A stretch of 64,000 bases of DNA from an uncultured Candidatus Saccharibacteria bacterium (GCA_964593805.1 CAZQHP010000001.1:389283-453282); one strand, 5' to 3'; positions 960 through 6,783 are shown, numbered from the stretch's first letter. Numbers and translations: made by a program. The notes: generated by a model not told the origin, from the letters alone.

Positions 960-1838
960 TTAATCTGTAGGAGATGTCTTGACCGGTACATCTCCCAAAT
1001 TATGCCTCATCAATATATCTTTTGCTCTAGACTTTGCAGAGCCGGGCACATATACACCACTAGAGAGTTTAAGAACATGGTCTACGCTGAGGTTTTGAAG
1101 TATGTAACAGTTGTCCCTCACATTACATACCTGTCCGTTAACAGTGAATTTACCTTTTTTGAAGAACGAACTAATCCTACTAAGTTCCCTTTTTTCTGAT
1201 TCCGTAATTATTCGGGTATTTATTTTGTTTGTCATGTAGTTTTTGAAAGAGCTTGGTATTCTCCACTCATTCTGGTGGTAGTATGCAAGCTGCTTGTTGG
1301 TTTTTCCTGTAGGAGTAACCAATCTTATGAAGCCTTGTAAATTATCCGATAGAGTTTTAAAATTTACATTTTCTTGCCTGAATCGTATTAAATCAGGTTG
1401 ATGTTCATGCACGTACACAAGCACATCGTTTATATCCGCAAATGTTTTCATAAATAGACCGCTCATGGCTTCTGTGATGCTTGTACCTTGTGCGGTAAGT
1501 ACTGGTGATGGGGGTATGTAAATTGCTGGGAAAAGTCCAAGCTCATCTGTTGCCGTGGCATTGAACTCAATAGCAAATTCACCAAAAATTTTTGAATGTG
1601 CTTTTAGTTCAGATTTAGGGATACAGGTTAAACACAAGGTTGTTTCCAAATTCTCGACCGGGTTTCCGCGACTTCCGTCACGCAAAATCTGATAATACCT
1701 ATGTACTCGTGGTGTCAGTACAAAACCCAGCCGTGCCATAGAGTCCAGAACCTCAAGGCCTCTCTCAATTCTTCGTTCCTTGTTTAAGCCAGGCCTGCGG
1801 GGAAAATTATGATAAAAATACAATTTTGGTTGCGTCAT
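960..1838 (-). CDS. AbiGi-like abortive-infection family protein
   Basis: ORF track, 292 aa. Three blocks resemble the conserved blocks I recall for lactococcal AbiGi-type proteins (FCDIP......H...YG.YGI.....G..PV.Y and EREWR): FYHNFP near the N-terminus, LCLTCIPKSELKAHSKIFGEFAIEFN...GLFPAIYIP, and YYHQNEWRIP. Not verified by HMM. Confidence 0.5.
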   Translation of the reverse strand: MTQPKLYFYHNFPRRPGLNKERRIERGLEVLDSMARLGFVLTPRVHRYYQILRDGSRGNPVENLETTLCLTCIPKSELKAHSKIFGEFAIEFNATATDELGLFPAIYIPPSPVLTAQGTSITEAMSGLFMKTFADINDVLVYVHEHQPDLIRFRQENVNFKTLSDNLQGFIRLVTPTGKTNKQLAYYHQNEWRIPSSFKNYMTNKINTRIITESEKRELSRISSFFKKGKFTVNGQVCNVRDNCYILQNLSVDHVLKLSSGVYVPGSAKSRAKDILMRHNLGDVPVKTSPTD

Positions 1839-1853
1839 TTTAAATTGGCCTTA

Positions 1854-1927
1854 TGGCTGGGGAGGAGGGATTCGAACCCCCGATCGTGGAACCAGAATCC
1901 ACTGCCTTACCACTTGGCCACTCCCCA
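1854..1927 (-). tRNA. tRNA-Gln (anticodon CUG), CCA encoded
   Basis: The reverse complement is TGGGGAGTGGCCAAGTGGTAAGGCAGTGGATTCTGGTTCCACGATCGGGGGTTCGAATCCCTCCTCCCCAGCCA. It folds as a cloverleaf: acceptor TGGGGAG/CTCCCCA, anticodon stem GTGGA/TCCAC with loop TTCTGGT (anticodon CTG), T-loop TTCGAAT, discriminator G, then CCA. Confidence 0.9.
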
Positions 1928-2303: not shown

Positions 2304-3197
2304 ATGCCCAAAAACGCTTCCAGGATTGCTGGCGCTGTCGGCACGGCCATATTCCTAGCCGTATTTATTCGTACGCCTAGTTTTCCCACGCCAGACAAAA
2401 TACTGGTGTTTGCCGCCCTGGCGGCTATGGCGTTTGGCCAGGCCAGGGAACTGCTCAAGCGATTTGTGCCGTTTGTGGCTTTACTGCTGGTATATGAATC
2501 ATTCAGGGGTCTGGCGCCTCAGCTGAACAGCTACGTCAACTACGGGTTTATGCCGGCGGCCGACAGGCTGCTGTTTTTTGGCCACTTGCCCACTACCCTG
2601 TTGCAAAATTTACTATGGCACGGGTACGTGCAATGGTATGACTTTGTGTTTTACGGCGCCTATACTCTGCATTTTGTACTGCCGTTTGCCCTGGCGGTGC
2701 TGATTTGGAAAACGCGCGAAAAACAATATTGGCGCTTTATCACTACCTTTTTGCTCGTTTCGTTCGCGGGGTTTCTAACTTTTCTGGCTTTCCCGGCCGC
2801 ACCGCCCTGGCTGGCCAGTGACAAGGGGCTGATAGAACCTATAGCCCATGTGTCATCCGCCATTTGGTACGCCTTTGGCATCCATGACTTTCCCAGCGTA
2901 TACAACAAAATTTCGCCAAATCCCGTGGCGGCCGTGCCATCCCTGCACGCCGCCTACTCCATGCTGTTCGCCTTGTTCCTGACCCGTATGTTCAAAACCA
3001 AATGGCGCTATTTGTCTTGGGTTTACCCGGCGCTCATCTGGATCGGCACCACCTATATGGGCGAACATTATGTGATAGACATAGTCATTGGAATCATCTA
3101 CGCGGTTTTGGGCTACTGGGCCGCCCCGTACGTACTGGCGCCAATCCAAAAAACCACCAAAAAACTTTTGCGTTTTAAAAATACCGTGCTACAGTAG
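2304..3197 (+). CDS. PAP2-superfamily integral membrane protein (AUR1/PAP2_3-like)
   Basis: 297 aa with multiple hydrophobic helices. PSLHAAYS and GEHYVIDIVIG match the PSGH and SRxxxxxHxxxD-type PAP2 motifs. TACAAT (2292-2297) lies 6 nt before the ATG. Confidence 0.7.
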   Translation: MPKNASRIAGAVGTAIFLAVFIRTPSFPTPDKILVFAALAAMAFGQARELLKRFVPFVALLLVYESFRGLAPQLNSYVNYGFMPAADRLLFFGHLPTTLLQNLLWHGYVQWYDFVFYGAYTLHFVLPFALAVLIWKTREKQYWRFITTFLLVSFAGFLTFLAFPAAPPWLASDKGLIEPIAHVSSAIWYAFGIHDFPSVYNKISPNPVAAVPSLHAAYSMLFALFLTRMFKTKWRYLSWVYPALIWIGTTYMGEHYVIDIVIGIIYAVLGYWAAPYVLAPIQKTTKKLLRFKNTVLQ

Positions 3198-3202
3198 GCG
3201 TA

Positions 3203-3380
3203 CTTTAACAACGTAAGAATATAAAGAGCGCAGCGAGAGATCTAGCTCAACGACCTGCCAGCAACCTATCTGAAAAGACAAGGTGCTCCATCTAGCCCGC
3301 CTGGCGGGAAAGATAAGTTTGCGCTGACATAAACGCATTATCAATCCTTTCCGCCGCTGTAGGCAGAAAGGATATTTTTT
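3203..3380 (+). promoter_or_regulatory. SAM-I-type (S-box-like) riboswitch, copy 1, upstream of split metE
   Basis: The core reads AAAGAGCGCAGCGAGAGATCTAGCTCAACGACCTGCCAGCAACC...AAGGTGCTCCATCTAGCCCGCCTGGCGGGAAAGATAAG. It aligns block by block with the S-box consensus AAGAG..GAGGGA.TGGCCC.ATGA....GCAACC...GGTGC.AATTCC.GC-hairpin-GAAAGATGAG. A second copy at 5434-5667 covaries in P2 and P4. A TGcTACAGT promoter at 3187-3195 overlaps the upstream stop codon. Confidence 0.7.
3344..3380 (+). terminator. Riboswitch expression-platform terminator
   Basis: ATCCTTTC (3344-3351) pairs with GAAAGGAT (3366-3373) and is followed by ATTTTTT and then the ATG at 3381. GGGAAAG at 3307-3313 can pair instead with CTTTCC as an antiterminator. 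Confidence 0.6.
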
Positions 3381-4295
3381 ATGTCAAACACTATTGAAGT
3401 GCTGAGCGCAGTCCACGGGATTGCGCCACGCAGCGACGAGCTGTTGCTGCTCGGCAGTGATCTGAGAAATGGTCGAGTTAGCCAATCAGCGTTCGACGAA
3501 CAAGTTGCTTTGGAGACAGAAGGCTGGCTGGCTTTGCAGGCCGAAGCTGGAATTAACCTCCGCGAAGACGGCAAATTGAGCTGGCAAGATCATTTGCGGC
3601 CGATAGTTAAAGCCACAAAGGGTTTTGCGCCACGTATTGATGACGCTCCCGTGACTCCATGGTACGAAGATAATCGATTTTATAGGCAGCCCACCGTCGT
3701 GAAAGAGCTGGATTTTGATGGCGAAGTGTTCGGCCGTTTGACGGGGCAACCAGGCGAATCGGTCAGCCTAATCGGGCCGCAAACGTTTTTCGAGCTTGTA
3801 AAAAGCAATCTATGGCCGGCCGAAACAGCCAAGGAAATAGAAAAACTGTACGTCCAACTCTGCGAGTACTATGCCGCCCAGGGGGTGCGCCATGTACTGT
3901 TCGAAGAGCCTGATGCTGGTTTGCAGCGGAAAAGCGCAGGAATTCAATTACACTCTTTCGTGCCCGTAGCTGAGGCACTCGGCATAGACATCGTAAAGAT
4001 ACCCTCTAGAATTTTTGAAACAGATGCGTCCGGACACGCCAAACGCACGCAGTGGAGCTACGGGCAAAAAAAGGCAGCGACGTGGCAGGCAACCACCATT
4101 GTCCGAGCGGTAGATGCTGGCAATACGGCTGAGGATGCACCGCTACAACCAACGATTGAAGTAGGCGGGCGCTATATACTTACGCACACTGTGGATTTGG
4201 AAAAAATACCGCTCAAACACGCACGTGACAAAGTAAAACGACTGGGTGAGTTTACCGCTAAGCTTCGTGGTGAGTTGGGGCAGCGCAATGACTGA
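3381..4295 (+). CDS. MetE N-terminal-domain homologue (Meth_synt_1-like) encoded as a separate polypeptide
   Basis: 304 aa. VTPWYEDNRFYRQPTVVKEL resembles the MTKWF.TNYHY.VPE block of the non-catalytic N-domain of cobalamin-independent methionine synthase. No zinc ligands. It sits directly behind a SAM riboswitch. Confidence 0.6.
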   Translation: MSNTIEVLSAVHGIAPRSDELLLLGSDLRNGRVSQSAFDEQVALETEGWLALQAEAGINLREDGKLSWQDHLRPIVKATKGFAPRIDDAPVTPWYEDNRFYRQPTVVKELDFDGEVFGRLTGQPGESVSLIGPQTFFELVKSNLWPAETAKEIEKLYVQLCEYYAAQGVRHVLFEEPDAGLQRKSAGIQLHSFVPVAEALGIDIVKIPSRIFETDASGHAKRTQWSYGQKKAATWQATTIVRAVDAGNTAEDAPLQPTIEVGGRYILTHTVDLEKIPLKHARDKVKRLGEFTAKLRGELGQRND

Positions 4296-5421
4296 AGCAT
4301 TACTAACGCAAGAAGTAGGAAGTCTGGCCAAACCAAATTGGCGGGTGGCAGCGGTTGCTGGACAAGAAATCACAGATGCCCACGTTGCTGAAGCGCTTGT
4401 TTGGGCAGAGCGTCTCGGTTTAGACAAGGATGAAATAGATTTTGCATTTAGCCGGATTCGCTCAGACGCTGATTGTTCTGAGGCGGAGTGTCGGGACTGG
4501 GCAAAGGAAAGCGCTCGGTTTTTGGCGGCTAGATTCGCGGTTAGACTACAGGAATCAGCTGGGCTGGACATCATATATGACGGAGAACAAGATCGCAGTG
4601 AAATGTATCAACACGCCGCCAGTCGGACTGAGGGATTTGAATGGCGTGGCCGGGTCCGAGTTTTTGACAATAATTCTTTCCGCAAGGCCGCGTGTACGGC
4701 ACAAGTAGGGATTTTGGAGCCGTGGCATACCGACGAAGTCGATCGTCTGGCAGAAATAGGAACCGATAAGCTCATAAAAGTGCCTGTTACCGGCGCTTAC
4801 ACACTGGCGGATTGGTCATATGACGAACATTACGGCAACCGGCGCGATTTTGTGCTGGACCTCGCCCGAAACGTAGTTCGGCCAAATGTAGCATCACTTT
4901 TAGAACAAGGTGTTTCGTGGGTACAGATTGATGAACCGGCAGCAACCACCAAGCCGGACGAAGTGCCGTTGTTTGTAGAAAGTTTCAACGAATCAGTTCG
5001 GGGTCTGCTGGGACAGTTTAGCGTGCATATCTGTTTTTCTGACTATTCTCTGCTCTTCCCGCATGTTGAGCAGCTAGAAAACTGTTCGCAGTTTTCGCTC
5101 GAATTTGCCAATCGCGACGACGCCCAGCTCGGCGTTGATGCCGCACATAGGCCGGCATACGAAATTCTTGCAGATCTGCGGCGGCATAACCCCGGTGCAG
5201 GTGTTGGACTTGGGGTTGTCAGCATTCACGAAGATAGTTTGGAATCCCCATTACTCGTGAGAGATCGCGTACTGCGGGCAGTTGATCTACTAGGCGATCC
5301 AGCCAAAGTTTTCCCTTCGCCGGACTGCGGTTTGCGCACCAGAAGCTGGGAGGTTACCTACGAAAAACTTGCCCGAACCGTGGCCGGAACTCAGCTTGCC
5401 CGCCAGGAACTTGGCGTGTGA
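4288..5421 (+). CDS. metE: Cobalamin-independent methionine synthase, catalytic (C-terminal) domain only
   Basis: Zinc-ligand motifs are VHICFSDY (HxC) and FPSPDCGLRTRSW (C). The GLDIIYDGEQDRSEMYQH block is also present. The ORF track starts at 4246. I prefer the ATG at 4288, which overlaps the upstream stop (ATGACTGA) and gives MTEALLTQEVGSLAKPNW. Confidence 0.8.
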   Translation: MTEALLTQEVGSLAKPNWRVAAVAGQEITDAHVAEALVWAERLGLDKDEIDFAFSRIRSDADCSEAECRDWAKESARFLAARFAVRLQESAGLDIIYDGEQDRSEMYQHAASRTEGFEWRGRVRVFDNNSFRKAACTAQVGILEPWHTDEVDRLAEIGTDKLIKVPVTGAYTLADWSYDEHYGNRRDFVLDLARNVVRPNVASLLEQGVSWVQIDEPAATTKPDEVPLFVESFNESVRGLLGQFSVHICFSDYSLLFPHVEQLENCSQFSLEFANRDDAQLGVDAAHRPAYEILADLRRHNPGAGVGLGVVSIHEDSLESPLLVRDRVLRAVDLLGDPAKVFPSPDCGLRTRSWEVTYEKLARTVAGTQLARQELGV

Positions 5422-5433
5422 TACAATGGGCTT

Positions 5434-5667
5434 ACTTAACAACTCAAAAGATATAAAGAGCGTGGGTTAGAGATCTAGCTCGATGCCTGTCCACCAAAGT
5501 ATTGGCGGCGGCGGAACCCACCAGCAACCCGTGGCAAGCAGCGTATCCCGAAAGGTTTACCCTGAGCTTGTCGAAGGGTGCTCCATCTAGTCCGCGTTAG
5601 CGGAGAAGATATTGACTCGCGATGAATATCCTTTCCGCTAGACATAAAGCTCAGAAAGGATTTTTTT
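5434..5667 (+). promoter_or_regulatory. SAM-I-type riboswitch, copy 2, upstream of metK
   Basis: It has the same core blocks as copy 1 (ATATAAAGAGCG, GAGATCTAGCTC, CCAGCAACC, GGTGCTCCATCTAG, AAGATA), with larger P2 and P3 insertions. P2 is GTGGGTT/AACCCAC (GCAG/CTGC in copy 1). P4 is TCCGC-GTTA-GCGGA (CCCGC-CTG-GCGGG in copy 1). A TGtgaTACAAT promoter at 5417-5427 overlaps the metE stop codon. Confidence 0.7.
5628..5667 (+). terminator. Riboswitch expression-platform terminator
   Basis: ATCCTTTC (5628-5635) pairs with GAAAGGAT (5654-5661). TTTTTT follows, then the metK ATG at 5668. Confidence 0.6.
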
Positions 5668-6783
5668 ATGACAAAAACAACTTTATTTACCAGCGAATCA
5701 GTCTGCGCCGGCCATCCGGACAAAATCTGCGACGCTATCAGCGACGCCCTGCTAGACGAAATTTTGCGGCAAGATCCACAGGGGCGTGCCGGGATTGAAT
5801 CGGTAGCCGGCGCCAATCAGATTTGCCTGTTTGGAGAAACAAAAACGACCGCAAAACTAGACAAAGAAGCCATTGTGCGCGAACTAGTCCAGCGGCTTGG
5901 CTATGCGGTGCCTGCCTGGGGGTTTTCCCAAGAATCCAGTTTTAGCGACGATATTCACCAGCAATCACCTGAAATTTCAATTGGGGTTGACCAAGAGGGC
6001 GCCGGCGACCAAGGCATGATGTTTGGCTACGCCTGCGACGAAACGCCGGAACTTATGCCGCTGCCAATCACGCTGGCTCACGCCCTGACTCGCCGTATAG
6101 ACGAAGTTCGCGAAAAGAAAATCCTAGACTACATTCGCCCCGACGGCAAAGCCCAAGTAACCATCCGTTATGAAGACGACAAACCAGTAGCAGTTGAAAA
6201 AGTTGTAATAGCAGTTGCTCATAGCGAAAACACCGACCCATCGACTGTGCACGCTGGAGTAGTCAAAGAAATCATCACGCCGGTTCTGGCCAAGTACAAA
6301 CTAGCCGTGCCAAGCGATGAAAACATCACCATAAATGGCACTGGTTTGTGGCACATCCCCGGGCCGGAATCAGACGCCGGACTAACTGGCCGCAAGATTG
6401 TGGTTGACGGCTACGGCGGCTACGCCCGCGTGGGCGGCGGCGCTTTTTCTGGCAAAGACCCGTCCAAAGTGGACCGTTCTGGCGCTTACGCCGCCCGCTA
6501 CATTGCCAAAAACATCGTAGCCGCGGGGCTGGCTACCAAGTGCGAAGTGGGACTGGCTTACGTAATTGGCCAGCCAAAACCGCTAATGCAAACCATAGAA
6601 ACCTTTGGCACCGCCACTGTTTCGGACGCGGAATTGCATGCTTTCAAAGACAAACTCATAGACACTTCCGTCAAAGGCATTATAGACACGCTAGACCTGC
6701 GCCGCCCCATCTATTCTCAAACGTCTGCCTATGGTCACTTTGGCAAAGACGGCTTGCCCTGGGAGAAGGTAGTAAAAGCTTAA
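5668..6783 (+). CDS. metK: S-adenosylmethionine synthetase
   Basis: 371 aa. FTSESVCAGHPDKICDAISDALLD, GAGDQGMMFGYA and GGGAFSGKDPSKVDRSGAYAARY are classic MetK signatures. Confidence 0.95.
   Translation: MTKTTLFTSESVCAGHPDKICDAISDALLDEILRQDPQGRAGIESVAGANQICLFGETKTTAKLDKEAIVRELVQRLGYAVPAWGFSQESSFSDDIHQQSPEISIGVDQEGAGDQGMMFGYACDETPELMPLPITLAHALTRRIDEVREKKILDYIRPDGKAQVTIRYEDDKPVAVEKVVIAVAHSENTDPSTVHAGVVKEIITPVLAKYKLAVPSDENITINGTGLWHIPGPESDAGLTGRKIVVDGYGGYARVGGGAFSGKDPSKVDRSGAYAARYIAKNIVAAGLATKCEVGLAYVIGQPKPLMQTIETFGTATVSDAELHAFKDKLIDTSVKGIIDTLDLRRPIYSQTSAYGHFGKDGLPWEKVVKA

What the first reader, a model, noticed from the sequence alone, without database searches (positions are those of the whole stretch)
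3203..5667. Two covarying SAM-I-type riboswitches control split metE and metK
Both leaders (3203-3380 and 5434-5667) share the blocks ATATAAAGAGCG, GAGATCTAGCTC, CCAGCAACC, GGTGCTCCATCTAG and AAGATA, in the order of the S-box core (AAGAG..GAGGGA.TGGCCC....GCAACC...GGTGC.AATTCC.GC..GAAAGATGAG).

The helices covary between the two copies:
- P2 is GCAG/CTGC in copy 1 and GTGGGTT/AACCCAC in copy 2.
- P4 is CCCGC-CTG-GCGGG in copy 1 and TCCGC-GTTA-GCGGA in copy 2.
- Copy 2 carries extra hairpins inserted in P2 and P3.

The loop sequence that is CTGGC in the classical consensus is CTAGC in both copies, and the J3/4 partner is also CTAG. This looks like a lineage-specific variant of the pseudoknot.

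Both riboswitch promoters (TACAGT 3190-3195 and TACAAT 5422-5427) overlap the stop codon of the preceding gene. The downstream genes (methionine synthase and SAM synthetase) are the textbook SAM regulon.
Basis: partly seen in the sequence, partly recalled or inferred. Interest (0 to 1): 0.6.

Follow-up and report, generated by a model that had tools for sequence, protein, structure and literature searches.

The report
Two SAM riboswitches before methionine genes
Two RNA leaders in this uncultured Saccharibacteria genome are ordinary class-I SAM riboswitches in front of a split methionine synthase and SAM synthetase; the only unusual point is that the second one has a hairpin inserted where its kink-turn should be.

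Summary

- **Copy 1 (3216-3319)** passes Rfam's SAM-I model, with 49.5 bits against a gathering score of 44.4.
- **Copy 2 (5448-5615)** scores only 16.6 bits on the Rfam model. The cause is a 30-nt insert in P2 and a P3 extended by about 35 nt. A covariance model built from 92 homologous leaders of related Saccharimonadales, none from the window, scores it at 57 bits (E 8e-14). That model finds no third copy in the window.
- **Covariation** supports P1-P4 and the pseudoknot. CUAG/CUAG is a compensatory, lineage-wide form of the usual CAGG/CCUG pairing.
- **Expression platform.** Each leader has a conserved extended -10 box. Each ends in a terminator whose 3' arm holds the ribosome-binding site, followed by a U-tract that runs straight into the ATG. 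Each also has an antiterminator built from the P4 and P1 3' strands.
- **Downstream genes** in homologous leaders are metK (59 of 94), homocysteine methyltransferase and Cys/Met PLP enzymes.
- **Split metE.** The 304-aa protein has a MetE-like predicted fold, so "split metE" holds.

Both inserts of copy 2 are missing from its three closest relatives. Whether copy 2 still senses SAM is untested.

Overall this is a new member of a known kind, of low to moderate interest.

The parts
3187..3195 (+). Promoter 1: extended -10 box TGcTACAGT. It overlaps the TAG stop (3195-3197) of the upstream PAP2-family gene.
   Evidence: Sequence. In 93 homologous leaders, 80 have a TAnnnT hexamer 2-10 nt upstream of the TTAACAA box, at 7-9 nt in 63 of them, and 63 of those 80 also have an upstream TG. 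The generic sigma-70 scan did not call it because no -35 box matches.
3205..3212 (+). Conserved TTAACAAC box at about the transcription start of leader 1. Its function is unknown.
3216..3319 (+). SAM-I aptamer, copy 1.
- P1: 3220-3222 with 3313-3315, plus a distal extension (3212-3217 with 3318-3323).
- P2a: 3230-3233 with 3255-3258.
- Kink-turn: CGA (3234-3236) opposite AAC-GA-C (3249-3254).
- P2b: 3237-3239 with 3246-3248.
- P3: 3261-3266 with 3282-3286.
- P4: 3296-3300 with 3304-3308.
   Evidence: Rfam RF00162 gives 49.5 bits against a gathering score of 44.4. The lineage model gives 108.7 bits.
3242..3245 (+). Pseudoknot strand CUAG in the P2 loop of copy 1. It pairs with CUAG at 3292-3295 in J3/4.
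3302..3356 (+). Antiterminator of leader 1. GGCGGGAAAGAU (the P4 3' strand, J4/1 and the P1 3' strand) pairs with AUCCUUUCCGCC (the terminator 5' arm).
   Evidence: Predicted energy -18.8 kcal/mol. Across 75 homologues, each leader's own partners pair better than permuted partners (-12.94 against -10.93 +/- 0.23, 0 of 5000 permutations).
3344..3380 (+). Terminator and sequestering hairpin of leader 1 (stem 3344-3373). The Shine-Dalgarno AAAGGA (3367-3372) lies in its 3' arm. The U-tract (3375-3380) runs directly into the ATG at 3381.
   Evidence: Predicted energy -16.7 kcal/mol. The same platform is found in at least 75 of 94 homologues.
3381..4295 (+). MetE N-terminal-like protein (304 aa), the first half of the split methionine synthase. 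Its stop overlaps the next start in the sequence ATGACTGA.
   Evidence: - Pfam Meth_synt_1: E 1e-3, below the family cut-off.
- NCBIfam: weak matches to PRK06438, PRK08575 and residues 107-207 of MetE.
- AlphaFold model: pLDDT 80.7.
- Foldseek against the PDB: top 31 matches are all cobalamin-independent methionine synthases, best E 5e-9.
4288..5421 (+). MetE catalytic-domain protein (377 aa).
   Evidence: Pfam Meth_synt_2 at E 5.9e-27. NCBIfam PRK04326 methionine synthase at 254.8 bits.
5419..5427 (+). Promoter 2: extended -10 box TGaTACAAT. The TG belongs to the TGA stop of metE-C.
   Evidence: Identical in the three closest relatives. Lineage-wide conservation.
5436..5443 (+). Conserved TTAACAAC box of leader 2.
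5448..5615 (+). SAM-I aptamer, copy 2.
- P1: 5450-5454 with 5609-5613.
- P2a: 5462-5468 with 5515-5521.
- P2b: 5470-5472 with 5479-5481.
- Pseudoknot: 5475-5478 with 5587-5590.
- P3 base: 5524-5529 with 5577-5581.
- P4: 5591-5595 with 5600-5604.
   Evidence: Rfam SAM gives only 16.6 bits (E 0.45). The lineage model gives 57.0 bits (E 7.8e-14). Alignment with relatives.
5486..5515 (+). A 30-nt insert in the bulged strand of the P2 kink-turn, after G5485 (the 1b position). It forms a hairpin, here called P2c, and turns P2 into a three-way junction. On the opposite strand CGA has become GUUA (5466-5469), so P2a is now a 7-bp Watson-Crick helix.
   Evidence: - Absent from L210, L211 and L089.
- Absent from the other 92 lineage leaders and from about 39 leaders of other phyla.
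- Occurs only once in the window, and in no fetched locus except L081, which is the same contig.
- Three-way junction predicted.
5530..5576 (+). Extended P3 hairpin capped by a GAAA loop. Its 3' strand (5554-5576) is the 23-nt module GGTTTACCCTGAGCTTGTCGAAG.
   Evidence: Fold. The module is identical in L086/L087 and L097, and L105 shares its last 22 nt; the opposite strands differ. The closest relatives have a short P3.
5598..5640 (+). Antiterminator of leader 2. UAGCGGAGAAGAUAUU pairs with AAUAUCCUUUCCGCUA.
   Evidence: Predicted energy -17.6 kcal/mol. Partner-specific complementarity.
5628..5667 (+). Terminator and sequestering hairpin of leader 2 (stem 5628-5661). The Shine-Dalgarno AAAGGA lies at 5655-5660. 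The U-tract (5661-5667) runs into the ATG at 5668.
   Evidence: Predicted energy -11.3 kcal/mol. Platform conserved in relatives.
5668..6783 (+). metK, encoding S-adenosylmethionine synthetase (371 aa).
   Evidence: All three Pfam S-AdoMet_synt domains match. Relatives are 78-93% identical and are labelled Saccharimonadales or Patescibacteria.

Best explanation
Both leaders are class-I SAM (S-box) riboswitches of a Saccharimonadales-specific flavour.

**Layout (shown or predicted from sequence).** Each leader is transcribed from its own extended -10 promoter, placed at the stop codon of the preceding gene. The aptamer is the usual four-helix junction, with a P2-loop/J3/4 pseudoknot made here of CUAG pairing with CUAG.

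**SAM bound (inferred).** P1 and P4 are held shut. The downstream AUAUCCUUUCCGC segment is then free to pair with GAAAGGAU. This forms a terminator hairpin followed by U5-7. The same hairpin buries the Shine-Dalgarno sequence, 7-8 nt before the ATG. Expression is therefore shut off by transcription termination, and by blocked ribosome binding on any read-through RNA.

**SAM low (inferred).** The 3' strands of P4 and P1 (GCGGGAAAGAU) pair with the same AUCCUUUCCGC segment. This antiterminator frees the ribosome-binding site.

**Targets.** Leader 1 controls a translationally coupled split methionine synthase: a MetE N-like barrel plus the MetE catalytic barrel. Leader 2 controls SAM synthetase.

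**Copy 2.** It is a recently remodelled version of the lineage's metK leader. A hairpin was inserted into the bulged strand of the kink-turn and P3 was lengthened. I judge it more likely than not to be still functional, because a three-way junction could replace the kink. This is inferred, not shown.
For: **Identity of the aptamers**
- Copy 1 passes the Rfam RF00162 threshold.
- A lineage model that excludes the window scores both copies (108.7 and 57.0 bits) and nothing else in the 64 kb.

**Covariation**
- All helices are supported.
- So is the known tertiary U-A/C-G pair next to the pseudoknot (UA 80, CG 10).
- Three of the four pseudoknot pairs change on both sides.

**Gene context**
- First genes after 94 homologous leaders: MetK in 59 and MetE-N in 1.
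- The rest include homocysteine S-methyltransferase, Cys/Met PLP enzymes and a PAPS-reductase-domain protein.

**Expression platform**
- Present in at least 75 of 94 leaders.
- Each leader's own antiterminator partners pair better than permuted partners (0 of 5000 permutations).
- Two homologues (L094, L176) lack the hairpin and use the P1 3' strand itself as the ribosome-binding site. Barrick & Breaker 2007 (PMC2258182) describe this mode for SAM-I.

**Copy 2 still under selection?**
- Every invariant core block, the promoter and the platform are unchanged relative to three relatives, while the linkers have diverged.
- Three changes on the 5' strand (CGA to GUUA) create three new Watson-Crick pairs opposite the insert. 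P2a, P2b and P2c fold as a three-way junction both with and without constraints.
- Lilley's group showed that the SAM-I kink-turn can be swapped for a different kinking element and still bind SAM (PMC3672288; PMC5061560).
Against: - No experiment shows SAM binding or regulation by either leader.
- Copy 2 fails the Rfam gathering score.
- Copy 2 has lost G at kink-turn position 2n and carries 30 extra nucleotides after G1b.
- No other sequence with this insert was found, so there is no comparative support for the P2c hairpin.
- The terminator of leader 2 is modest (-11.3 kcal/mol).
- The generic terminator and promoter scan found neither hairpin nor promoter.
- The permutation tests do not correct for relatedness among the sequences.
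Confidence: 0.8

Rival explanations
1. Copy 2 is a crippled relic. The insert destroyed the kink-turn, so the P2 loop can no longer reach J3/4 and SAM is not bound. The antiterminator then forms by default and metK is expressed constitutively. Only copy 1 is a working switch.
For: - G2n is replaced by U, and a 30-nt hairpin interrupts the G1b-A2b step.
- The insert is unique to this genome among about 130 SAM-I leaders examined and has no comparative support.
- Rfam scores copy 2 at 16.6 bits.
- A dead aptamer in front of metK would not be lethal.
- In Kt-7, a G2nU change blocks ion-induced folding (PMC5061560).
Against: - All other core positions, the pseudoknot strands, P1, P4 and the platform are intact, while the linkers have diverged from relatives.
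- The three 5'-strand changes look compensatory.
- A1n and G1b, the most critical kink-turn positions, are kept.
- 2n = U is the commonest state in the natural kink-turn Kt-23, and a pk-turn can replace the SAM-I kink-turn.
Confidence: 0.3
2. The hairpins before the start codons act mainly or only as translational sequestering stems, not as transcription terminators.
For: - The 3' arm contains AAAGGA, 7-8 nt before the ATG, in both leaders and in most homologues.
- Homologues L094 and L176 have purely P1-embedded ribosome-binding sites.
- Outside Firmicutes, translation control is the commoner riboswitch mechanism (PMC2258182).
Against: A run of 5-7 U immediately follows a GC-containing stem in nearly all homologues. 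That is the signature of an intrinsic terminator. The two modes are not exclusive.
Confidence: 0.3
3. The two leaders are not riboswitches. They would instead be copies of a repeated DNA element or another leader type, such as a T-box or a protein-binding site, that happens to resemble the S-box core.
For: The two copies share long identical blocks. A conserved TTAACAA box of unknown function sits upstream of each.
Against: - Rfam assigns SAM-I and no other family.
- There are compensatory changes in every helix and in the pseudoknot.
- Association with methionine and SAM genes is strict across about 90 metagenomic homologues.
- The blocks occur nowhere else in the window.
Confidence: 0.02

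Closest known systems
SAM-I riboswitch / S-box leader (Rfam RF00162; e.g. B. subtilis metE, metK and yitJ leaders, T. tengcongensis metF)
   Same: - Four-way junction P1-P4 with conserved J1/2 AAGAG, GCAACC/GGUGC in P3, and J4/1 GAAAGAU.
- Kink-turn in P2 (copy 1).
- Pseudoknot between the P2 loop and J3/4, with the adjacent U-A tertiary pair.
- Terminator/antiterminator platform.
- Genes of the SAM and methionine regulon.
   Different: - The pseudoknot is the palindromic CUAG/CUAG instead of CAGG/CCUG-type pairing.
- There is one extra loop nucleotide.
- P1 is made almost only of A-U pairs.
- The kink-turn 3b.3n pair is mostly C.C.
- A conserved TTAACAA box sits at the transcript start.
- The terminator 3' arm doubles as the ribosome-binding site, and the U-tract serves as the spacer to the AUG.
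k-junction and complex k-turns (Wang, Daldrop, Huang, Lilley 2014, PMC4005666; Huang & Lilley 2016, PMC5061560)
   Same: - Copy 2's P2 is a three-helix junction built on kink-turn remnants: the C helix GAG/CUC, the loop GAU, and G1b opposite A1n.
- In the TPP k-junction one extra nucleotide between G1b and A2b is tolerated.
   Different: [quoted passage not shown]
- Here the hairpin sits in the bulged strand after G1b.
- Here 2n is U, and the former non-canonical stem can form plain Watson-Crick pairs.
- No structure or homologue supports the arrangement.
SAM-IV (RF00634) and SAM-I/IV (RF01725) variants
   Same: Same clan and a similar ligand-binding core.
   Different: From my own knowledge of these families, not tested here, those variants lack the P2 kink-turn, have a reduced or missing P4 and use a second pseudoknot. 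Both window copies keep a normal P4. In the clan-filtered low-threshold scan only RF00162 was reported for copy 2.
Two-gene archaeal-type MetE (NCBIfam PRK04326 methionine synthase next to PRK08575/PRK06438-type proteins); full-length bacterial MetE (TIGR01371)
   Same: The catalytic Meth_synt_2 barrel and a second, MetE-N-like barrel are encoded by adjacent, overlapping genes.
   Different: - Both proteins score far below the NCBIfam equivalog cut-offs.
- The methyl donor is unknown.
- The 304-aa family was found only in Saccharibacteria-type contigs.

Membership tests
SAM-I riboswitch (RF00162) | Score at or above Rfam's gathering threshold (44.4 bits) | tested here: met
   Copy 1 scores 49.5 bits. 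Copy 2 does not reach the threshold (16.6 bits), so this row is met for copy 1 only.
SAM-I riboswitch (RF00162) | Four-helix junction P1-P4 with the conserved core, supported by covariation | tested here: met
   The core aligns in both copies. Paired cells are 87.8% and 92.4%, against 34-47% in slid controls. 17 and 26 pairs change on both sides.
SAM-I riboswitch (RF00162) | Pseudoknot between the P2 loop and J3/4 | tested here: met
   CUAG pairs with CUAG in both copies and in 92 of 92 lineage homologues, where the loop half was fixed by the search pattern. Across phyla, 3 of the 4 pairs show changes on both sides.
SAM-I riboswitch (RF00162) | Standard kink-turn in P2 (3-nt bulge, then G.A and A.G pairs) | tested here: inconclusive
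   Copy 1 meets it by sequence: CGA opposite AAC-GA-C. Copy 2 does not. Its 2n position is U, and 30 nt are inserted after G1b. A kinked three-way junction is possible there but unproven.
SAM-I riboswitch (RF00162) | Alternative terminator and antiterminator (or sequestering) structures linked to P1 | tested here: met
   Predicted for both leaders. Conserved in at least 75 of 94 homologues. Partner-specific complementarity. These are predictions only.
SAM-I riboswitch (RF00162) | Location upstream of sulfur, methionine or SAM metabolism genes | tested here: met
   Split metE and metK in the window. In homologues: MetK, S-methyl_trans, Cys_Met_Meta_PP and PAPS_reduct.
SAM-I riboswitch (RF00162) | Selective binding of S-adenosylmethionine | not testable with these tools
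   Needs in-line probing, ITC or equilibrium dialysis.
k-junction (elaborated kink-turn three-way junction) | [quoted passage not shown] | tested here: not met
   In copy 2 the extra hairpin lies in the bulged strand (5486-5515) and 2n is U. Definition taken from PMC4005666.
Cobalamin-independent methionine synthase (MetE), split form | Catalytic Meth_synt_2 barrel | tested here: met
   Pfam PF01717 at E 5.9e-27, 95.3 bits against a cut-off of 21. I did not check the zinc ligands individually.
Cobalamin-independent methionine synthase (MetE), split form | Second, N-terminal-type barrel | tested here: met
   Sequence matches are weak. The predicted fold (pLDDT 80.7) matches MetE structures with Foldseek E of about 5e-9 and TM-score (query-normalised) 0.6-0.69. 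The fold-search output does not say which MetE barrel it superposes on.

The most novel reading that the evidence does not exclude
Copy 2 may be a working SAM-I aptamer in which the kink-turn has been naturally replaced by a three-way junction.

A 30-nt hairpin is inserted in the bulged strand between G1b and A2b. Three changes on the opposite strand convert the non-canonical stem into Watson-Crick pairs. This kink substitute would differ from both the k-junction and the pk-turn.

Separately, these Saccharimonadales leaders carry two conserved sequence modules that the SAM-I model does not explain: the TTAACAA box at the transcript start and a 23-nt P3 strand. These could be binding sites for something else.
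Probability: 0.4. Interest if true: 0.5.

Novelty: new member of a known kind. Interest (0 to 1): 0.3.

Why it matters
The finding gives a correct annotation of two regulatory RNAs in an uncultured, genome-reduced epibiont. It shows that Saccharimonadales keep the SAM cycle (metK, a split MetE, homocysteine methyltransferase) under riboswitch control.

I found no paper in the searched library that discusses native riboswitches of this group, although Rfam-based annotation would pick up copy 1. One perspective article proposes riboswitches as candidate tools for inducible expression in Patescibacteria (PMC11665869). A native, compact SAM-responsive leader is a possible starting point for that.

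For RNA structure work, copy 2 is a natural test of how much the SAM-I kink-turn can be altered. It rests on a single sequence.

Tried and rejected
1. **Other leaders with a P2 insert.** I scanned metagenomes for AGAGATCTAGCT, a gap of 11-41 nt, then CAGCAACC. Every hit with a gap above 13 nt was a chance match without the rest of the riboswitch.
2. **P2 insert as a dispersed repeat.** It occurs once in the window, and in no fetched locus other than the same contig.
3. **The 23-nt P3 module as a genome-wide repeat.** There is one copy in the window. In the fetched loci it occurs only inside riboswitch P3 stems.
4. **The TTAACAA box pairing with the expression platform.** Each leader's own partner pairs no better than permuted partners (-3.70 against -3.90 kcal/mol).
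5. **The TTAACAA box as a general promoter feature.** In the window, the -10 plus box combination occurs only at the two leaders, apart from one intragenic match.
6. **Generic promoter and terminator scan.** It missed both promoters and both terminators because there is no -35 match and the loops exceed 8 nt.
7. **Sequence search of the 304-aa protein against the PDB.** No hit; the fold search was needed.
8. **Unconstrained minimum-energy folds of the whole leaders.** They do not reproduce P1 or the junction, which is expected for a fold stabilised by tertiary contacts and ligand.
9. **Close relatives sharing copy 2's inserts.** The three nearest (L210, L211, L089) have compact leaders. L088 has a different long P3, and the contig starts inside the leader before P2.


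Full report
**What is there.** The region holds two leaders of the same design, each in front of a methionine or SAM gene.
- ORF 3381-4295 (304 aa) has only a weak Meth_synt_1 match.
- ORF 4288-5421 (377 aa) has the MetE catalytic domain.
- ORF 5668-6783 is a complete SAM synthetase.
- The window is part of a 777-kb metagenomic contig (ENA ERZ27284378).
- The closest MetK and MetE relatives are labelled Candidatus Saccharimonadales, Saccharibacteria or Patescibacteria.

**Checking the observation.** Rfam's SAM-I model (RF00162) matches 3216-3319 at 49.5 bits, above its gathering score of 44.4. A low-threshold scan of the second leader matches the same family end to end. The score is only 16.6 bits, because 50 nt in P2 and 45 nt in P3 are treated as insertions. 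The only corrections concern the promoters:
- TACAGT overlaps the TAG stop by one base.
- TACAAT abuts the TGA stop. The TG of an extended -10 box lies inside that stop codon.

**Bringing in relatives.** A MetK-based scan of species-representative genomes gave one Saccharibacteria locus (L001) with the same kind of leader. Look-ups of closer MetK, MetE-C and MetE-N homologues gave more. A DNA pattern built on the P2b hairpin and the P3 strand recovered further leaders from metagenomes.

Together with the two window copies, this made 94 distinct leaders. I aligned the 92 non-window aptamers (A1).
- On the SAM-I structure, 87.8% of cells form pairs, against 34-44% when the 3' partners are slid by 1-3 columns.
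- 17 pairs show changes on both sides. One P2a pair, for example, is A-U in 61 sequences and G-C in 31.
- The tertiary pair next to the pseudoknot is U-A in 80 and C-G in 10. Barrick & Breaker 2007 predicted such a long-range pair (PMC2258182).

A covariance model built from A1, without the window, scores copy 1 at 108.7 bits and copy 2 at 57.0 bits. It finds nothing else in the 64 kb.

Because the search pattern fixed the P2 loop, I also aligned 48 metK-linked SAM-I leaders from Saccharimonadales, Firmicutes and other phyla with the model (A3).
- There, 92.4% of cells pair, against 40-47% slid.
- Three of the four pseudoknot pairs change on both sides: A-U 10 against U-A 10, and G-C 24 against A-U 9.

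**Expression platform and mechanism.**
- In both leaders the segment AUAUCCUUUCCGC can pair downstream with GAAAGGAU. This gives a hairpin followed by U6-7, at -16.7 and -11.3 kcal/mol.
- The same segment can instead pair upstream with the 3' strands of P4 and P1 (GCGGGAAAGAU or GCGGAGAAGAUAU), at -18.8 and -17.6 kcal/mol.
- The 3' arm of the hairpin contains AAAGGA, and the U-tract runs straight into the ATG. One hairpin can thus both terminate transcription and hide the ribosome-binding site.
- At least 75 of 94 homologues have this layout.
- Across 75 of them, each aptamer's 3' end pairs better with its own terminator arm than with those of other leaders (-12.94 against -10.93 +/- 0.23 kcal/mol, 0 of 5000 permutations). 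This test does not correct for relatedness.
- Two homologues (L094, L176) have no hairpin and use the P1 3' strand itself as the ribosome-binding site. That is a known SAM-I mode.
- Upstream, 80 of 93 leaders have a TAnnnT hexamer 2-10 nt before a conserved TTAACAA box, at 7-9 nt in 63 of them, and 63 of those 80 have an extended TG.
- The steps from SAM binding to termination or sequestration are inferred from the S-box paradigm. They are not shown here.

**Regulon.** The first gene after the 94 leaders is MetK in 59 and MetE-N in 1. Among the rest, the ones I scanned are homocysteine S-methyltransferase, Cys/Met PLP-dependent enzymes and a PAPS-reductase-domain protein. This fits a SAM sensor.

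**Split metE.**
- The two ORFs overlap by 8 nt (ATGACTGA).
- The 377-aa protein matches archaeal-type short methionine synthase models (PRK04326, 254.8 bits, below the equivalog cut-off).
- The 304-aa protein has only weak sequence matches to the N-terminal region of MetE and to PRK06438 and PRK08575, and none to PDB sequences.
- With an alignment of 23 homologues, AlphaFold gave a confident model (pLDDT 80.7, pTM 0.82).
- Its top 31 Foldseek matches in the PDB are all cobalamin-independent methionine synthases (best E 5e-9).
- NCBI labels two homologues "MetE-like protein".
- The gene pair, and the order PAP2 gene, metE-N, metE-C, metK, is kept in the closest relatives.

**Copy 2 in detail.** The three closest relatives are L210 (MetE-C 91% identical), L211 (MetE-N 84% identical) and L089 (MetK and MetE-C 88% identical). 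All three have compact metK leaders with a canonical kink-turn, for example GUGG-CGA-GAG...CUC-AUU-GA-C-CCAC, and a short P3.

Against them the window differs in three ways:
- It has a 30-nt insert after G5485.
- CGA is replaced by GUUA on the opposite strand.
- It has a long P3.

Everything else is unchanged, including the promoter, the box, the core, the pseudoknot strands, P4 and the platform. The linker regions, by contrast, have diverged.

The new 5'-strand bases pair with AAC on the 3' side. P2a becomes a 7-bp helix, and P2a, P2b and the new hairpin fold as a three-way junction, both with and without constraints. A1n and G1b are kept, and G2n is lost.

Published work bears on whether this can still function:
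- A1n is essential for SAM binding.
- 2n = U occurs naturally in the kink-turn Kt-23.
- One nucleotide between G1b and A2b is tolerated in the TPP k-junction.
- A pk-turn can substitute for the SAM-I kink-turn.
- The described k-junction, however, has its third helix on the other strand, so copy 2 is not a member of that motif.

No second example of the insert was found among about 130 leaders. Its function therefore rests on the compensatory look of the changes and on the conserved core. I put the chance that copy 2 still responds to SAM at roughly 60%.

**Side observations.**
- P3 is a hot spot for lineage-specific extensions (L082, L088, L125, L201, and the metE leader of L211).
- The 3' strand of the window's long P3 is the 23-nt module GGTTTACCCTGAGCTTGTCGAAG. 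It is identical in two other metK leaders, and its last 22 nt recur in a homocysteine-methyltransferase leader. The opposite strands differ, and the closest relatives lack the module.
- In a more distant Patescibacteria metK leader (L002), the reverse complement of the module's last 17 nt, with one mismatch, forms the other strand of P3.
- The TTAACAA box shows no co-varying partner in the platform.

Both the module and the box remain unexplained.

**Verdict.** This is a correct identification of a textbook regulatory RNA class in a little-studied lineage, so it is a new member of a known kind. The remodelled kink-turn of copy 2 and the two unexplained conserved modules are the only points that go beyond routine annotation.

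Noticed in passing
window 3205-3212 and 5436-5443; same position in 87 of 93 homologous leaders: A conserved TTAACAA(T/C) box lies 7-9 nt downstream of the extended -10 in most leaders, at about the transcript start, and about 10 nt before P1. In the window it accompanies a -10 box only at the two riboswitches. It shows no partner-specific pairing with the expression platform. It is not part of the SAM-I model, and its function is unknown.
   Followed up: partly
window 5554-5576; L086 and L087 about 3892-3914; L097 about 1777-1799; L105 (minus strand); L002 5763-5779: The 23-nt module GGTTTACCCTGAGCTTGTCGAAG forms the 3' strand of an extended P3. It is identical in the window, L086/L087 and L097, and L105 shares its last 22 nt. 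These are leaders of different genes and organisms, their opposite strands differ, and the closest relatives lack the module. In L002 the reverse complement of the module's last 17 nt, with one mismatch, is the 5' strand of P3, and a second CUUGUCGAAGGG lies downstream of the aptamer. This is either a constrained element or one that is exchanged between leaders.
   Followed up: partly
L094 (minus strand, about 4657-4774) and L176 397-514: These homologous metK leaders have no terminator hairpin. The P1 3' strand GGAAGGAUAUUUUUAUG is itself the ribosome-binding site and runs into the start codon, which implies purely translational control by P1.
   Followed up: no
L002 5700-5900: The metK leader of a more distant Patescibacteria MAG looks like a SAM-clan aptamer without a kink-turn and with a reduced P4, resembling SAM-I/IV. 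It did not reach any Rfam gathering score.
   Followed up: no
L088 1-176: This metK leader comes from a 91%-identical MetK relative. It has more than 83 nt of unrelated sequence where P3 should be, and the contig starts inside the leader. P3 length is hypervariable among close relatives.
   Followed up: no
L210 2941-2952 and L211 33-44: In the closest relatives' metE leaders, the P2 loop nucleotide just before CUAG varies: U in the window, A in L210 and C in L211. The four pseudoknot bases stay fixed.
   Followed up: yes
alignment A1, columns 45 and 68 (window 3234 and 3254): The kink-turn 3b.3n position is C.C in 50 of 92 lineage leaders. In SAM-I overall, A.G is reported as the majority (60%; PMC5061560). 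Barrick & Breaker 2007 noted G-A to C-C variation at this position.
   Followed up: partly
window 960-1838 (-) and 1857-1927 (-): An AbiGi-like gene (putative abortive-infection antitoxin family, Pfam E 1e-8) lies next to a tRNA gene, just upstream of the PAP2 gene.
   Followed up: no
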